Assembly (NCBI GenBank): GCA_964436825.1
Contig: CAYTEO010000001.1
Coordinates: forward strand, 9,035-73,034
Origin: an uncultured Fibrobacteraceae bacterium
Lineage (GTDB): Bacteria; Krumholzibacteriota; Krumholzibacteriia; LZORAL124-64-63
Direction of reading: 5' to 3'
Length of the DNA stretch: 64,000 bases
Below the pieces are notes generated by a model. It was given only the letters and a program-made list of their open reading frames with translations, searched no databases and was not told the DNA's origin. Numbering within the stretch: the first letter of the stretch is position 1; each line of letters opens with the position of its first letter. The position numbers and the translations under genes are program-made. This document shows, one piece after another, positions 47,917 to 53,559 of the stretch.

Positions 47917-48849
47917 TCACTCTCGCGCGCCTCGGCGGCCAGGATAGGGGCGTCCGGTCAGCTCGTCCAGGGCTCCCTGGACCAGGGCCAGCGCCGCGGC
48001 CGGACTCCCGTGCCAGAGCCACCAGGCGACGTGGCCGGCATGGTAGGCGAGCTGGGCCGGCCAGAGGGTCGCGCGCGCCAGGCCGTGCCAGTGCCGGCGG
48101 AGCAGGCGGATGTGGCTGCGGGAACGCAGGTAGAGCCGCTCCGGGGAGTCGCCGCCCAGCGACTGGCTCACCTTGTGCAGGACCAGGGCTGCCGGCACGT
48201 GGAGGATGCGCCCCCCCGCCTCCCGGATCCGCAGGCAGTAGTCTGAATCCTCACCGTAGAGCCGGAACTCCTCGTCCAGGTCCCCGACCTCCTCGACGGC
48301 ACGCCGGGACAGCAGCAGGGCGCAGCCGGTGCCGTACTCGATGTAACGCGAGGTCAGGGGGCGACCGCCCGCCTCCTGCCGGATCCCGGCGTGCCGGACC
48401 CAGCCGGACCAGCGGCCGACGATCCCCCCGTCGTACCAGATCCGGGCCGGATCGTCGGCGTAGCAGATACGCGGCGTGGCGGCCCAGACCGCGGGGTCGG
48501 CCGCCGCGGTCCGGACCAGGCGCTGCAGGCTGCCGCCGGGGACGATGGTGTCGTTGTTCAGCAGCAGGACCCAGTCGGGGCAACCGTCGCGGCGCAGCCG
48601 GCGCAGGGCCAGGTTGTTCCCCCCCGCCCACCGCAGGTTCTCCGGCGCGGCGAGGATCTCCACGTCGGGATAGCGGTGACGGACGAAGTCGACCGAACCG
48701 TCGGTCGAGGCGTTGTCCACCAGCAGGATCCGCAGGTCGCGGTAGCCGCCGGCCAGCAGGGAACCGAGACAGTCGTCCAGCAGGTGTCGTCCGTTCCAGT
48801 TGACGACGACGACCGTCAGCGTGGGCCACGTGGAGAACTCAGTCGGCAT
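47917..48849 (-). CDS. GT2-family glycosyltransferase (rhamnosyl/glycosyl transferase-like).
   Basis: LTVVVVNWNGRHLL...LVDNASTDGS...YGEDSDYCLR DxD/ED motifs. Confidence 0.75.
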   Translation of the reverse strand: MPTEFSTWPTLTVVVVNWNGRHLLDDCLGSLLAGGYRDLRILLVDNASTDGSVDFVRHRYPDVEILAAPENLRWAGGNNLALRRLRRDGCPDWVLLLNNDTIVPGGSLQRLVRTAAADPAVWAATPRICYADDPARIWYDGGIVGRWSGWVRHAGIRQEAGGRPLTSRYIEYGTGCALLLSRRAVEEVGDLDEEFRLYGEDSDYCLRIREAGGRILHVPAALVLHKVSQSLGGDSPERLYLRSRSHIRLLRRHWHGLARATLWPAQLAYHAGHVAWWLWHGSPAAALALVQGALDELTGRPYPGRRGARE

Positions 48850-50846: not shown

Positions 50847-53559
50847 GCTGCCCGTTCCCTCCCGTGGTCCCCGGGTCGGAGCCGCCGTCGCCCTGCTCCC
50901 GCTCCATCTCGGCGAGGGCCCGTTCCATGGCGGGGTCCTCCTGCCCGAAACGCTCCCGCCACGCCTCCGCGATGGCGCGACACCCCTGCAGATCGGCACG
51001 GTAGCGGGCCAGCTTGAACAGCATCCGGTACGGGAGCGGATCTCCGGGGTCCGCCGCCCGGCGGCGCTGCAGCCAAGCCTCGGCCAGGGAGTCGGCGCCC
51101 GCCGTGTAGAGGGTCTCGACGACCTGGCCGACGGTCCGTTCCTCGTCCAGCTGCGGGATCCGCCCGTGGATGGCGTCGAGATGGGCCAGGGCGGCAGCCG
51201 GCCGGTGGCGCTCGATCAGCAGCAGGGGATAGATGTCGGCGACCATGGGGAAGGTCGGGTCGAAGCTGCGGGCCATCTCGAAGGCCGCCTCGGCCTTGCC
51301 CAGGACGTGCTGGTAGAGGGAGTCGTCCTCGACGGGGATGGTCCGGGCCTGCTGCAGCATGGCGTAGCCGGCGCGGATCATGCCGGCCGGGTAGTTGCCC
51401 ATGAGGTTGCTGGTCGTCGTGTCGAAGAAGACGTCCCGGCGGCGCTCGCCGTCGTCGGTGTAGAGGCCCTCGAACTCCCAGGTGCGACCCTCGCCGGCGA
51501 GCTGGGCGGGATCGCCCGCCAGCAGCGGCGCGGGATCCAGGCTGTTGAGCTCGGCGAAGCGGCGGCGACGGCGGTCGCTGTCCCCGGTCAGGACCGCCCG
51601 GTAGTCGTAGACGCCGTACGCGTTGGCCAGCAGGCGCTCGGGATCGACGGTAGGGTTGCCGTCCTGCGACGCCCTGCCGGTGAAGCGGTAGGCCAGTCCC
51701 TCCATCCGCAGCATCCCGTAGTAGCGCTTCATGTTCTCCTGCGGGATCGTCACGGCGAAGTAGACCGGTCGCCGCCCGGCGTTCTGCAGGATGTTGTGGA
51801 CCACGTAGTCCTTGACCATCAGGTACTCGCGCCTGCCGGTCTCGGGGTCCTCGTAGATGACCGGCCGCAGTTCCTCCAGCTCGCGGTCGCTGTAGGAGAT
51901 CTTCACGGTGGGCGGGTAGCGCTTGAGCTGCTTGTTGTACCAGGCCAGGTTGACCAGGCTCAGGTTGACGATGGAGACGTCCTTGCGGAAGCCCTCCACC
52001 TGCTGGAGGTACCAGACCGGGAAGGTGTCGTTGTCGCCGTTGGTGAACAGGATGGCGTCGTGGTCCAGGCCGGCCAGCATGTTCCAGGCGTACTCCCGCG
52101 GCGCCCAGTTCAGGTGGCGGTCGTGCTCGAACCACTTGGTGTGGCCGGGCACGAGCAGCGGCAGCGCGGCGACCAGCACCAGGGCGCCGGCGACGACCTT
52201 GACGACCGGGCCGATGCGCACCGCCGCGGCCCCGCTCCGCGCGACCGCATCGCGACCCTTCTCCAGCAGGGGACCGGCCAGGTACCGCAGCAGGGCGGCG
52301 GCGCCGATCCCGATGAAGACGGCGAAGTAGAGGAAGCCGGCGAAGAAGAAGTAGTCGCGGTCACGGACCTCGTGGTCGGTGAAGTTCAGGTAGACGTTCA
52401 GGATGTCGGCGTTGATCAGGTAGTTGACCAGGATCAGCCACGCCAGAGGCCGGGCGCGCAGCAGGGCGTGGACGGCCCCCAGCAGTCCCAGGAAGACCGG
52501 CACCAGGAAGTTCAGCCAGCGGGCACCGCCGCCCAGGCGCGGGTCCAGGAAGGTGAACTGCTGGACGAGGTAGTGGTAGTAGTAGCCGATCTGCCAGAGG
52601 AAGTCGGCCTTGCGCTGGAAGGGGTTCATGGGCGGATACTGCTCCCGCCGCAGGACCTCCATGAGGGTGGCGAAGTTGTCCGGCTGCGACTGGTTGATGG
52701 CCGGGTCCAGCCCGGCGCGGATCAGCAGGTAGATGTGGACCGACAGGCCGAGCAGGAACAGCCCGCCCCCGATCAGGACCAGCGGCTTGCCGCCGTGGGC
52801 CCGCACCAGGGCCCAGGCCGCCAGGGCGACCACGGCTCCGACGAGGACGAAGTCGTCCTTGATCATGGTCGAGACCATGAACAGGCCGAGCACGGCGCCC
52901 AGGCCGAGCAGGTCGAGGACCTCGATCCGGCGCTCCCTGGCCAGCAGGACCAGGACGAAGATCCCGGGGAAGACGAGCAGCGTTCCCAGGTGGAACCCGA
53001 CGCCGAGGCCCAGCAGGTAGATCATCAGCAGCAGCAGCCGGTTGCTCGCCTCCCGGCGGCGCACGTCGTACCACTTCAGGGCCAGCCAGGTCAGGAAGGT
53101 GATCATGAACGCCGCCAGGCCGTAGACCTCGGCCTCGATGGCGTTGTTCCAGAAGGTGTGGCTGAAGGTCAGCATCAGGGCGCCGACCAGCCCCCCGGCA
53201 TGGGGCAGCCACCCCGCGTCGGGATCGGCCCGGCGGGCCAGCCGGACGATGACCAGGTAGGTGAACATGACCGCCAGGGCGCTGAAGAACCCGGACATGG
53301 CGTTGACGGCCCTGGCCGTGCTGCCCAGCACCGGTGCCAGCAGCAGGTCGAAGCAGCGGCCCACCAGGACGTACAGGGGCGTGCCGGGCTGGTGGGGGAT
53401 CCCCAGGATGTGGCTGGTGGTGATGAACTCGCCGCAGTCCCAGAAACTGAGCGTCGGCGCCATCGTCAGCAGGTAGACGATCCAGGCGAGCAGGAAGACG
53501 CCGCCGGCCAGCCGGGGCGTCCACCGATCCTGTCGAGTCGTCGTGGGCATGCTCTTCAT
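50836..53559 (-). CDS. DUF2723-family (TMEM260-like) GT-C membrane glycosyltransferase with a C-terminal TPR-like soluble domain.
   Basis: N-terminal [34 protein letters not shown] signature of DUF2723. About 11 TM helices. A C-terminal 300 aa helical domain. 907 aa. Confidence 0.6.
   Translation of the reverse strand: [907 protein letters not shown]

What the first reader, a model, noticed from the sequence alone, without database searches (positions are those of the whole stretch)
48839..53559. ArnC-like GT2 + SDR epimerase + DUF2723 (TMEM260-like) GT-C transferase with a C-terminal TPR domain: candidate O-glycosyl (mannosyl/pentosyl) transferase module
**Seen in sequence.** The 907-aa protein begins with [31 protein letters not shown], followed by about 11 TM helices. 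This is the DUF2723 signature. The only characterised member of that family is human TMEM260, a protein O-mannosyltransferase. Bacterial members are uncharacterised.

**Partners.** It overlaps by 11 nt an SDR sugar-nucleotide epimerase/dehydratase. Immediately beyond that is an ArnC/GtrB-like polyprenyl-phosphate glycosyltransferase with the C-terminal TM pair.

**Interpretation.** This trio is a self-contained make-lipid-linked-sugar-and-transfer-it unit. The C-terminal TPR-like domain could be an acceptor-recognition module, as in eukaryotic OGT/TMTC.
Basis: partly seen in the sequence, partly recalled or inferred. Interest (0 to 1): 0.8.

Follow-up and report, generated by a model that had tools for sequence, protein, structure and literature searches.

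The report
Bacterial TMEM260-type glycosyltransferase gene module
The three genes are real: a bacterial relative of the human O-mannosyltransferase TMEM260 coupled to a sugar-acid epimerase and a lipid-sugar synthase, inside a 13-gene envelope-glycan cluster; the family is known and large, but no bacterial member has a tested function.

Summary
The ORF at 50836-53559 (-) matches Pfam PF11028 (TMEM260-like/DUF2723) at E=5.9e-51. A family profile finds human TMEM260 in the PDB at E=2.8e-24. Three residues essential in TMEM260 are conserved: D52->D41, H67->H56, and the catalytic base D441->D509.

The two partner genes each overlap their neighbour by 11 nt.
- The SDR is closest to UDP-glucuronate 4-epimerases, so the coupled sugar is more likely galacturonic acid than mannose or pentose.
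- The GT2 matches ArnC over its full length and has two C-terminal TM helices.

The trio is not self-contained. It lies in a 13-gene glycan cluster that also holds a flippase-like gene, a Dol-P-Man-synthase-like GT2 and a second GT-C (YfhO-like).

In 80 related loci:
- SDR: 9
- ArnC-like GT2: 13
- DPMS-like GT2: 18
- GT4: 26

The donor sugar and the acceptor (protein or glycan) are inferred, not shown. Verdict: a new member of a known kind, of moderate interest.

The parts
50836..53559 (-). GT117 / TMEM260-like (DUF2723) GT-C glycosyltransferase, 907 aa (904 aa from the alternative start at 53550). Membrane core about residues 1-470, Rossmann-like domain about 480-650, TPR-like domain about 714-891.
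49803..50846 (-). Extended SDR, probable UDP-glucuronate 4-epimerase (347 aa). Overlaps the GT117 stop by 11 nt.
   Evidence: Best PDB hit is B. cereus UDP-GlcA 4-epimerase 6zl6/6zld/6zll: E=2.2e-75, 43.6% identity over 305 positions. Next is MoeE5 at 1.6e-60. R88, W91, S127, Y149, K153, T178 and R185 are conserved. The PDB codes and residue roles come from PMC11519531 and PMC12338863.
48839..49813 (-). ArnC/GtrB-type GT2 polyprenyl-phosphate glycosyltransferase (324 aa) with two C-terminal TM helices. Overlaps the SDR stop by 11 nt.
   Evidence: PF00535 E=2e-38. NCBIfam ArnC model E=1e-60, below the equivalog cutoff. ArnC structures 9hwj/9bhc/8vxh E~5e-56 over residues 11-319, then GtrB-like sll0501. 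TM segments at 238-262 and 268-294.
53639..54625 (-). Flippase-like membrane protein (LPG_synthase_TM / UPF0104, 328 aa), about 80 nt upstream of GT117. Candidate flippase for the lipid-linked sugar (inference).
   Evidence: PF03706 E=4.4e-31. TIGR00374 flippase-like domain. Eight hydrophobic segments. An orthologue lies next to GT117 in 16 of 80 loci.
54622..55752 (-). GT4 (GT-B) cytoplasmic glycosyltransferase, 376 aa. The commonest conserved neighbour of GT117.
   Evidence: PF00534 E=1.8e-38. Orthologue present in 26 of 80 loci, always on the same strand and on either side of GT117.
55757..56542 (-). Class I SAM methyltransferase, 261 aa.
   Evidence: PF08241 E=7e-20. Orthologue in 18 of 80 loci, usually paired with the GT4.
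47917..48849 (-). Soluble GT2 glycosyltransferase, 310 aa. Overlaps the ArnC-like gene's stop by 11 nt.
   Evidence: PF00535/PF13641. No TM segment. Related GT2 in 23 of 80 loci.
45363..47840 (-). Divergent YfhO-family membrane protein, 825 aa. A second candidate lipid-P-sugar-dependent GT-C.
   Evidence: Weak PF09586 hit at E=4.5e-5. About 40% of its close homologues carry PF09586, and one is named YfhO family protein. About 10 hydrophobic segments.
44659..45366 (-). Soluble GT2 resembling dolichyl/polyprenyl-phosphate mannose synthase (DPMS/PpgS-like), 235 aa. Overlaps the YfhO-like gene by 4 nt.
   Evidence: Its only PDB hit is P. furiosus Dol-P-Man synthase 5mlz, E=2.7e-26. Best NCBIfam hit is PpgS at 1.4e-19. 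Orthologue within 10 kb of GT117 in 18 of 80 loci.
42627..44648 (-). GT2 fused to a membrane/N-terminal-half module of an EPS sugar transferase, 673 aa.
   Evidence: PF00535. TIGR03025 matched only over model positions 2-270 of 445. Always found next to the DPMS-like GT2 in related loci.
40225..42630 (-). Secreted 801-aa protein: signal peptide, propeller-like repeats, and a C-terminal FlgD_ig / T9SS-type sorting domain.
   Evidence: FlgD_ig E=6e-5; Por_Secre_tail E=4e-4; PorZ model E=6e-8, limited to the C-terminal domain and far below its cutoff.
39184..40212 (-). FemAB/Acetyltransf_6-type acyl/aminoacyl transferase, 342 aa.
   Evidence: PF13480 E=1.6e-20.
37889..39232 (-). Polytopic membrane protein, 447 aa, possibly a MOP (Wzx/MurJ-like) flippase. 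Last gene before mraZ.
   Evidence: 12-16 hydrophobic segments. Weak MurJ hit at E=0.0018.

Best explanation
The 907-aa protein is a genuine bacterial member of glycosyltransferase family 117 (TMEM260-like/DUF2723). It is a polytopic GT-C enzyme with a periplasmic Rossmann-like 'palm' and TPR-like 'fingers', the same three-domain plan as human TMEM260.

**Proposed pathway**
1. The translationally coupled SDR epimerises UDP-glucuronate to UDP-galacturonate.
2. The coupled ArnC-type GT2 transfers that sugar to undecaprenyl phosphate at the cytoplasmic face.
3. The lipid-linked sugar is flipped. The candidate flippase is the flippase-like protein encoded directly upstream.
4. The GT117 enzyme binds the lipid-P-sugar in its membrane core (D41, H56). 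It transfers the sugar, with inversion, to a hydroxyl of an acceptor held by the palm and fingers. D509 acts as the general base.

**Shown**: family membership, fold, conservation of the three key residues, gene coupling, and the family assignments of the partner genes.

**Inferred, with my probabilities**
- The donor is a polyprenyl-monophosphate sugar: about 0.8.
- The ArnC-like GT2 makes it: about 0.55.
- The sugar is GalA: about 0.45.
- The acceptor is Ser/Thr of an extended envelope polypeptide: about 0.4.

The module works within a 13-gene envelope-glycan cluster, not as an isolated trio.
For: **GT117 protein**
- PF11028 at E=5.9e-51. PF28495 TMEM260_2 is recorded on the identical protein. 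NCBI names close relatives 'glycosyltransferase family 117 protein'.
- An 83-sequence profile hits human TMEM260 (9rql/9rqm/9rqn) at E=2.8e-24 in two stretches. These align D41-E44 to D52-E55, H56 to H67, and N507-G508-D509 to R439-G440-D441.
- In TMEM260, D52, H67 and D441 are each essential, and D441 is the catalytic base (bioRxiv 10.64898/2026.03.17.711096).
- All three residues are invariant in 83 homologues.
- AF2 model: pLDDT 89, pTM 0.89.

**Partner genes**
- SDR: 43.6% identical to B. cereus UDP-GlcA 4-epimerase, with the carboxylate-binding and catalytic residues conserved. The same motifs occur in all 10 SDR orthologues found next to GT117, including this locus.
- ArnC-like GT2: full-length match to ArnC structures at E~5e-56, plus a TM pair.
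- Three consecutive 11-nt ATGnnnnnTGA overlaps couple GT117, the SDR, the GT2 and the next GT2.

**Co-occurrence**
- An ArnC-like orthologue (>=45% identity) lies within 10 kb of GT117 in 13 of 80 other loci. It occurs in several different gene orders across lineages labelled Krumholzibacteriia, Eisenbacteria, Latescibacterota, Fibrobacterota and Chitinispirillaceae.
- In 5 of those loci no DPMS-like GT2 is nearby.

**Precedent for a polyprenyl-P-GalA donor**: Rhizobium RgtE with the RgtD/F transferases (PMC7663294).
Against: - No biochemical data exist for any bacterial GT117.
- TMEM260 uses Dol-P-mannose. A Dol-P-Man-synthase-like GT2 lies in the same cluster and accompanies GT117 more often than the ArnC-like gene does (18 vs 13 of 80 loci).
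- The SDR is confined to one clade (9 of 80 loci).
- 36 of 80 loci have none of these partner genes within 10 kb.
- I found no UDP-glucose dehydrogenase motif in the window.
- The membrane region 225-480 could not be aligned to TMEM260 by sequence. The donor-loop residues R264/Y267 and R355 are therefore untested.
- The conserved cytoplasmic GT4 and methyltransferase neighbours are not explained by a simple one-sugar transfer to protein.
- The flippase role of the PF03706 protein is an assumption.
Confidence: 0.55

Rival explanations
1. The donor for GT117 is polyprenyl-phosphate mannose (or another hexose), made by the DPMS-like soluble GT2 at 44659-45366, as in TMEM260 and actinobacterial PMT. 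The SDR and ArnC-like pair would then feed the YfhO-like GT-C or another step.
For: - TMEM260 uses Dol-P-Man.
- The DPMS-like GT2's only PDB hit is Dol-P-Man synthase, at E=2.7e-26.
- Its orthologue (>=45% identity) lies within 10 kb of GT117 in 18 of 80 loci. In 10 of these, no ArnC-like GT2 and no YfhO-like protein was detected nearby at my thresholds, so GT117 is the only recognised GT-C there.
Against: - In this window the DPMS-like gene overlaps the YfhO-like gene by 4 nt and lies 5.5 kb from GT117. The ArnC-like gene is coupled to GT117 through two 11-nt overlaps.
- Five loci have GT117 and the ArnC-like GT2 without the DPMS-like GT2.
- The DPMS-like gene always travels with the 673-aa GT2, which suggests a separate sub-module.
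Confidence: 0.25
2. The acceptor is not a protein. It is a lipid-linked or envelope glycan (LPS core or lipid A, another glycolipid, or a polysaccharide), as for ArnT, RgtA-D/F, Gtr enzymes, YfhO or mycobacterial Rv3779. GT117 would add a periplasmic side-branch sugar.
For: - The gene sits in a 13-gene co-directional cluster of GT4, four GT2s, a methyltransferase, two flippase-like proteins and a FemAB-like enzyme. The cluster lies between nusB and the dcw cell-wall cluster.
- The papers I read describe bactoprenyl-P-GalA only as a donor for lipid A GalA decoration (PMC7663294); its use on LPS core is from my own knowledge.
- The periplasmic motif [15 protein letters not shown] is almost invariant across the close homologues, which fits a universal envelope acceptor. 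Its presence in the 81 loci carries no weight, because those loci were selected with that motif.
Against: - The Rossmann-like and TPR module, and the Asp that aligns to TMEM260's catalytic base, are the parts that grip an extended peptide in TMEM260.
- From my own knowledge, characterised GT-C enzymes with lipid or glycan acceptors lack TPR domains.
Confidence: 0.35
3. GT117 transfers a short oligosaccharide en bloc, acting like an oligosaccharyltransferase or ligase. The glycan would be primed on undecaprenyl phosphate by the ArnC-like GT2, extended and methylated in the cytoplasm by the GT4, the 310-aa GT2 and the methyltransferase, and then flipped. This is comparable to the Dol-P-based Agl pathway of Haloferax (that comparison is from my own knowledge).
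For: - The GT4 and methyltransferase are the most widely conserved neighbours of GT117, on either side of it, in several phyla. Cytoplasmic enzymes cannot extend a sugar already placed in the periplasm.
- The top Foldseek hits are STT3 and AglB oligosaccharyltransferases.
- The ArnC-like GT2 also matches the AglJ model at E=6.5e-25.
Against: - TMEM260 transfers a single mannose.
- From my own knowledge, ArnC/GtrB-type products are normally terminal donors, not primers.
Confidence: 0.15

Closest known systems
Human TMEM260 (CAZy GT117), an ER protein O-mannosyltransferase for IPT domains (PMC10214176; bioRxiv 10.64898/2026.03.17.711096; PDB 9RQL/9RQM/9RQN)
   Same: - Same Pfam families (PF11028 and PF28495).
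- Same three-domain plan: GT-C core, Rossmann-like domain, TPR domain.
- Residues aligning to D52, E55, H67 and the catalytic base D441 are conserved.
   Different: - Bacterial and periplasmic.
- About 200 residues longer, with probably 13 rather than 11 membrane helices (my reading).
- The middle of the membrane domain cannot be aligned by sequence.
- The motif around the base is NGDND rather than RGDLP.
- It is coupled to a uronate epimerase and an ArnC-type GT2, not to a DPM1-type synthase alone.
- No IPT-type sequon was found in the window.
- Donor and acceptor are untested.
Three-component periplasmic glycosylation systems: ArnC/ArnEF/ArnT, GtrB/GtrA/Gtr*, CsbB/GtcA/YfhO (from my own knowledge of the field)
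   Same: A GT2 polyprenyl-P-sugar synthase with a C-terminal TM pair, matching ArnC structures at E~5e-56, is encoded next to a GT-C transferase.
   Different: - The GT-C is GT117 with Rossmann-like and TPR domains, not ArnT (GT83), a Gtr enzyme or YfhO.
- No small GtrA/ArnEF-type flippase was recognised. A PF03706 flippase-like protein lies adjacent instead.
- No ArnA, ArnB or ArnD genes occur in the cluster.
Rhizobium/Mesorhizobium GalA modification of lipid A (and, from my own knowledge, LPS core): RgtE (bactoprenyl-P-GalA synthase) with the RgtD/F transferases (PMC7663294)
   Same: Predicted logic: UDP-GlcA 4-epimerase -> UDP-GalA -> polyprenyl-P-GalA via an ArnC-family GT2 -> periplasmic GT-C transfer.
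   Different: - Orthology of the GT2 to RgtE was not tested.
- The transferase here is GT117 rather than an ArnT-like Rgt enzyme.
- The acceptor may be protein.
Actinobacterial PMT (GT39) with Ppm1: Sec-coupled protein O-mannosylation (from my own knowledge)

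Membership tests
GT117 / Pfam TMEM260-like (DUF2723) | N-terminal PF11028 domain above the gathering score | tested here: met
   E=5.9e-51; 173.2 bits against a cutoff of 24.2; residues 41-210 cover model positions 1-176 of 179.
GT117 / Pfam TMEM260-like (DUF2723) | Second family domain (PF28495 TMEM260_2; the Rossmann-like luminal/periplasmic domain) | tested here: met
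   A precomputed hit is recorded on the identical protein and on all 120 listed homologues. The profile also aligns residues 480-556 to TMEM260 407-483, with stretch E=1.7e-5. My local Pfam copy lacks this model.
GT117 / Pfam TMEM260-like (DUF2723) | Acidic residue and His of the first extracytoplasmic loop (TMEM260 D52 and H67, both essential) | tested here: met
   D41 and H56 align to D52 and H67. Both are invariant in 83 sequences. WDxGE is present in nearly all of 81 loci.
GT117 / Pfam TMEM260-like (DUF2723) | Catalytic base Asp in the Rossmann-like domain (TMEM260 D441) | tested here: met
   N507-G508-D509 aligns to R439-G440-D441. D509 is invariant in the 83-sequence alignment. The related loci were selected with this motif, so their conservation is not independent evidence.
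GT117 / Pfam TMEM260-like (DUF2723) | Donor-loading-loop Arg/Tyr (R264, Y267) and TMH10 Arg (R355) | tested here: inconclusive
   A profile of residues 225-480 finds no TMEM260 match. The candidates are the invariant R305...Y308 (RREQYP) and R399/R401. This needs a superposition on 9RQL, which is absent from the fold libraries.
GT117 / Pfam TMEM260-like (DUF2723) | GT-C fold with a C-terminal TPR domain | tested here: met
GT117 / Pfam TMEM260-like (DUF2723) | Protein O-mannosyltransferase activity with a polyprenyl/dolichyl-P-mannose donor | not testable with these tools
   Requires biochemistry or glycoproteomics.
Three-component lipid-P-sugar periplasmic glycosylation system | GT2 polyprenyl-phosphate glycosyltransferase with C-terminal TM helices, encoded beside the GT-C | tested here: met
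Three-component lipid-P-sugar periplasmic glycosylation system | Dedicated flippase (GtrA, ArnE/F or GtcA type) | tested here: inconclusive
   No such small flippase was recognised among the called genes. A PF03706 flippase-like protein lies directly upstream and is a neighbour in 16 of 80 loci. Its substrate is unknown.
ArnC/ArnT L-Ara4N lipid A pathway | ArnA/ArnB/ArnD-type genes that make UDP-L-Ara4FN, and an ArnC equivalog-level match | tested here: not met
   The ArnC model scores 205 bits against an equivalog cutoff of 529. The cluster has no aminotransferase, formyltransferase or deformylase. The SDR is of the UDP-GlcA 4-epimerase type.
UDP-glucuronate 4-epimerase (SDR) | Closest characterised relatives are UGA epimerases, and Y149/K153, S127, T178, R88 and R185 (B. 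cereus numbering) are conserved | tested here: met
   6zl6 at E=2.2e-75 and MoeE5 at 1.6e-60, ahead of the GlcNAc/Glc epimerases and dehydratases. The residues were read from the alignment. Identity is 43.6%. No NCBIfam equivalog was reached. Activity is untested.
Rgt GalA-transfer system | An ArnT-like RgtA-D/F transferase | tested here: not met
   The GT-C here belongs to PF11028/GT117, not an ArnT-like family. Only the predicted donor chemistry is shared.

The most novel reading that the evidence does not exclude
Bacterial GT117 proteins are periplasmic protein O-glycosyltransferases of the FCB superphylum. They would modify Ser/Thr on extended, newly exported envelope proteins, using a polyprenyl-P-sugar: GalA in this lineage, and mannose or another hexose where only the DPMS-like partner is present. 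That would make them the prokaryotic ancestors of metazoan TMEM260 O-mannosylation.

A more remote extension (a few percent): they are the transferase of Bacteroidota general O-glycosylation, which was still unidentified as of a 2022 paper (PMC8729774).
Probability: 0.3. Interest if true: 0.8.

Novelty: new member of a known kind. Interest (0 to 1): 0.42.

Why it matters
GT117 has one characterised member, human TMEM260, whose loss causes a lethal heart-kidney syndrome. The bacterial side of the family is very large: 13,946 clusters at 50% identity at E<=1e-3. The related genomes recovered here span many lineages of the FCB group. I found no study of any bacterial member.

This locus offers concrete, cheap hypotheses.
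- Candidate donor pathway: UDP-GlcA 4-epimerase -> ArnC-like GT2 -> C55-P-GalA, with a DPMS-like alternative.
- Three mutable catalytic residues: D41, H56 and D509.
- Cultured relatives for genetics: Chlorobaculum and Prosthecochloris genomes carry the gene.

If the acceptor is protein, this would reveal a new bacterial O-glycosylation system and the evolutionary origin of a human glycosylation pathway. If the acceptor is glycan or lipid, it would add a new class of GT-C enzyme to envelope remodelling.

Tried and rejected
**Dead ends and uninformative tests**
- Aligning the middle of the membrane domain (residues 225-480) to TMEM260 with a 10-sequence profile gave no hit. The donor-loop residues therefore remain untested.
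- The afdb50 fold library was unavailable. TMEM260 structures are absent from both PDB fold libraries, so no direct superposition was possible.
- A regex for the TMEM260/IPT sequon and looser TIG-like motifs, run over all six frames of the window, found nothing.
- Regexes for UDP-glucose dehydrogenase and GDP-mannose pathway motifs found nothing. These are weak tests.
- The promoter/terminator scan of 37.5-57.4 kb gave counts at chance level.
- My first greedy ORF picker lost the SDR, because at high GC the neighbouring ORF over-extends. I replaced it with all-ORF clustering plus tblastn.
- Literature searches for DUF2723, GT117, PF11028 and TMEM260 with 'bacterial' found no bacterial study.

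**Readings I rejected**
- SDR as dTDP-glucose 4,6-dehydratase or GalE. The NCBIfam hits are far below their cutoffs, and the best solved relatives are UGA epimerases. From my own knowledge, the active-site motif SSSSVYG also lacks the dehydratase Asp-Glu.
- The L-Ara4N (Arn) pathway. There are no ArnA/B/D genes.
- 'A self-contained trio'.

Full report
**1. Observation**

The window is about 72% G+C. Every gene discussed here is on the minus strand.
- The 907-aa ORF at 50836-53559 carries the quoted N-terminal sequence. It matches Pfam PF11028 (TMEM260-like, formerly DUF2723) at E=5.9e-51.
- The identical protein is on record in public metagenome contigs as a 904-aa gene call from 53550. It carries a second family domain, PF28495 TMEM260_2.
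- The SDR (49803-50846) and the GT2 (48839-49813) follow it. Each junction is an 11-nt ATGnnnnnTGA overlap. A third such overlap links the GT2 to a further 310-aa GT2.

**2. Anatomy of the GT117 protein**

Homologues and conservation:
- A search of 5.8 billion proteins returned 1,076 hits at E<=1e-5 among the candidates scored. Sources name them 'DUF2723 domain-containing protein', 'glycosyltransferase family 117 protein' or 'TPR repeat protein'.
- In an 83-sequence alignment the invariant positions include F39-W40-D41, G43-E44, H50, G53, P55-P61 (PHQPGTP), R304-P309 (RREQYP), E397, R399, R401-F404 (RDYF) and T506-T512 (TNGDNDT).

Match to human TMEM260:
- A profile of that alignment finds human TMEM260 (PDB 9RQL/9RQM/9RQN) at E=2.8e-24, in two stretches.
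- The first stretch aligns D41/E44/H56 to D52/E55/H67.
- The second aligns N507-G508-D509 to R439-G440-D441.
- The 2026 cryo-EM preprint shows that D52, H67 and D441 are each essential, and that D441, in a luminal Rossmann-like domain, is the catalytic base. The TPR 'fingers' and Rossmann-like 'palm' grip an extended acceptor peptide.

Structure prediction:
- The AlphaFold2 model (pLDDT 89, pTM 0.89) has the same plan. Membrane helices run to about residue 470, an alpha/beta domain spans about 480-650, and paired helices span 714-891.
- Pfam TPR models reach only E=0.034.
- The TPR claim therefore holds at the fold level.
- Residues 225-480 could not be aligned to TMEM260 by sequence. The donor-loop Arg/Tyr and the TMH10 Arg are untested.

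**3. The two partner genes**

SDR:
- It scores far below every NCBIfam equivalog cutoff.
- Its best solved relatives are B. cereus UDP-glucuronate 4-epimerase (6zl6/6zla/6zld/6zll; E=2.2e-75; 43.6% identity over 305 positions) and MoeE5 (E=1.6e-60). These rank ahead of WbgU/WbpP, GalE, RmlB and UXS.
- PMC11519531 ties 6ZLL, 6ZLD and 6ZLJ to that enzyme and discusses Y149, S127, R88 and P85. PMC12338863 assigns R185 to binding of the UDP-GalA carboxylate.
- In the alignment R88, W91, S127, Y149, K153, T178 and R185 are conserved. The stretch LRYFTVYGPRQRPDMAF is identical. T126 is Ser and P85 is Ala.
- All ten SDR genes found beside GT117, including this locus, share these motifs.
- The likely product is therefore UDP-GalA, not a mannose or pentose nucleotide. 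This is an inference from similarity.

GT2:
- It matches three ArnC structures over residues 11-319 (E~5e-56), then the GtrB-like sll0501, then Dol-P-Man synthase.
- It has two C-terminal hydrophobic helices.
- It is ArnC-type but not an ArnC equivalog: 205 bits against a cutoff of 529.

**4. Wider context in the window**

Public gene calls for the same contig, together with my scans, give this order:

ribD-ribE-ribBA-ribH-nusB | methyltransferase - GT4 - PF03706 flippase-like - GT117 - SDR - ArnC-like GT2 - GT2 (310 aa) - YfhO-like 825-aa membrane protein - DPMS-like GT2 (235 aa) - GT2 fusion (673 aa) - secreted 801-aa protein with a T9SS-type C-terminal domain - FemAB/Acetyltransf_6 - 447-aa polytopic, weakly MurJ-like protein | mraZ-STAS-domain protein-rsmH-155-aa unannotated protein (ftsL position)-ftsI-murE-murF-mraY.

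- The trio is thus part of a 13-gene, about 18.7-kb, co-directional envelope-glycan cluster. The cluster has no detectable intrinsic terminators (a weak test).
- It contains two candidate lipid-P-sugar synthases: the ArnC-like GT2, and a DPMS-like GT2 whose only PDB hit is Dol-P-Man synthase at E=2.7e-26.
- It contains two candidate lipid-P-sugar-dependent GT-C enzymes: GT117 and the YfhO-like protein.

**5. Comparative genomics**

- A scan of one genome per species returned at least 600 matching stretches. The best 80 loci carry record labels including Krumholzibacteriota, Eisenbacteria, Zixiibacteriota, KSB1, Latescibacterota, Gemmatimonadota, Fibrobacterota, Chlorobiaceae (with cultured Prosthecochloris and Chlorobaculum), Bacteroidota, Ignavibacteriales, Neomarinimicrobiota, Cloacimonadota, Calditrichaceae and WOR-3.
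- Most of the complete GT117 ORFs are about 800-1030 aa, and nearly all keep WDxGE. The NGDND motif was part of the search pattern, so its presence is not independent evidence.
- Orthologue-level neighbours within +/-10 kb, out of the 80 loci, are listed below.

| Neighbour | Loci (of 80) |
|---|---|
| GT4 | 26 |
| 310-aa-type GT2 | 23 |
| Methyltransferase | 18 |
| DPMS-like GT2 | 18 |
| Flippase-like | 16 |
| nusB | 16 |
| ArnC-like GT2 | 13 |
| GT2 fusion | 10 |
| SDR | 9 |
| YfhO-like | 6 |
| None of the glyco partners | 36 |

- The full trio occurs in 8 loci. All belong to the clade closest to the query.
- The ArnC-like GT2 also sits beside GT117, the GT4 and the flippase-like gene, in different gene orders, in loci labelled Latescibacterota, Fibrobacterota and Chitinispirillaceae.
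- The DPMS-like GT2 accompanies GT117 in ten loci where no ArnC-like GT2 and no YfhO-like protein was detected nearby.
- Loci labelled Bacteroidota show GT117-methyltransferase-GT4. Chlorobiaceae loci show GT117 without any of these partners.
- Caveat: these are the 80 loci most similar to the query, and genes more than 10 kb away are invisible.

**6. Most likely mechanism**

Shown:
- Membership in GT117.
- GT-C, Rossmann-like and TPR-like fold.
- Conservation of the residues aligning to TMEM260 D52, H67 and D441.
- Tight coupling to a UGA-epimerase-like SDR and an ArnC-type GT2.
- A flippase-like gene directly upstream.

Inferred:
- The epimerase makes UDP-GalA.
- The ArnC-like GT2 makes undecaprenyl-P-GalA on the cytoplasmic face, and the lipid-linked sugar is flipped.
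- GT117 binds the donor in its membrane core and transfers the sugar with inversion.
- The acceptor is held by the periplasmic palm and fingers, with D509 as the base.
- A polyprenyl-P-GalA donor with a GT-C transferase has precedent in Rhizobium RgtE with RgtD/F (PMC7663294).
- By analogy with TMEM260 the acceptor could be Ser/Thr on an extended exported polypeptide. Nothing here shows that.

**7. Rivals**

(a) The donor is polyprenyl-P-mannose or another hexose from the DPMS-like GT2. TMEM260's donor and the ten DPMS-only loci favour this. Gene coupling in this window disfavours it.

(b) The acceptor is a glycan or lipid, as for ArnT, Rgt, Gtr or YfhO. The polysaccharide-type neighbourhood favours this. 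The conserved peptide-gripping module disfavours it.

(c) GT117 transfers a short, methylated oligosaccharide en bloc. The glycan would be built on the lipid by the ArnC-like GT2, the GT4, a GT2 and the methyltransferase. This would explain why cytoplasmic GT4 and methyltransferase genes are the most conserved neighbours. No GT117 precedent exists.

These alternatives differ on donor or acceptor. None disputes that the protein is a lipid-linked-sugar-dependent GT-C enzyme.

**8. Comparison, novelty and score**

- The protein is a member of a known family and shares its architecture. The module follows the known three-component logic.
- It is not an Arn system and not an Rgt system (see the membership tests).
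- What is new is only that no bacterial GT117 has been studied, and that this locus suggests a uronic-acid donor.
- The family is large: 13,946 representatives at E<=1e-3 and 6,119 at E<=1e-10. It is already labelled by NCBI.
- I rate it a new member of a known kind, with interest 0.42. It is a useful handle on an uncharacterised family related to a human disease gene, but it would not surprise a specialist.
- The most novel reading not excluded is an FCB-wide periplasmic protein O-glycosylation system ancestral to TMEM260. I give it about 0.3.

Noticed in passing
window 40225-42630 (-): An 801-aa secreted protein sits inside the glycan cluster. It has a signal peptide, propeller-like repeats (weak Reg_prop), and a C-terminal FlgD_ig / T9SS type-A sorting domain (...VRLYPNPF...). 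It gives a weak match to the PorZ model (the T9SS anionic-LPS delivery protein), limited to the C-terminal domain (E=6e-8, 31 bits against a cutoff of 260). It could be a cargo or an acceptor-handling protein for the cluster's glycan. This is speculative.
   Followed up: partly
window 45363-47840 (-) and 44659-45366 (-): A second possible lipid-sugar module: a divergent YfhO-family membrane protein overlapping by 4 nt a soluble GT2 whose only PDB hit is Dol-P-Man synthase.
   Followed up: partly
window 48839-50846 (-): Three consecutive gene junctions (GT117/SDR, SDR/GT2, GT2/GT2) all have the same 11-nt ATGnnnnnTGA overlap. Several other junctions in the cluster use 4-nt overlaps.
   Followed up: yes
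window about 37.9-56.5 kb, and loci L009, L015, L016, L018, L025, L030, L042, L047: The glycan cluster is wedged between ribD-E-BA-H-nusB and the dcw cluster (mraZ...mraY). In loci from several other lineages, GT117 lies just downstream of ribH-nusB. This is conserved synteny with housekeeping genes and has no obvious functional reason.
   Followed up: partly
loci L010, L019, L033, L068, L079: Tandem or closely spaced GT117 paralogues, each about 820-930 aa and each keeping WDxGE and NGDND. This suggests diversification of donor or acceptor specificity.
   Followed up: no
window 42627-44648 (-): A 673-aa fusion of a GT2 domain with only the N-terminal (membrane/linker) half of an EPS polyprenyl glycosylphosphotransferase model (TIGR03025 positions 2-270 of 445). 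The catalytic C-terminal half appears to be missing. In related loci it is always adjacent to the DPMS-like GT2.
   Followed up: no
window 37889-39232 (-) and 39184-40212 (-): A 447-aa polytopic protein with a weak MurJ/MOP-flippase match (E=0.0018) and a FemAB/Acetyltransf_6 protein close the cluster just before mraZ.
   Followed up: partly
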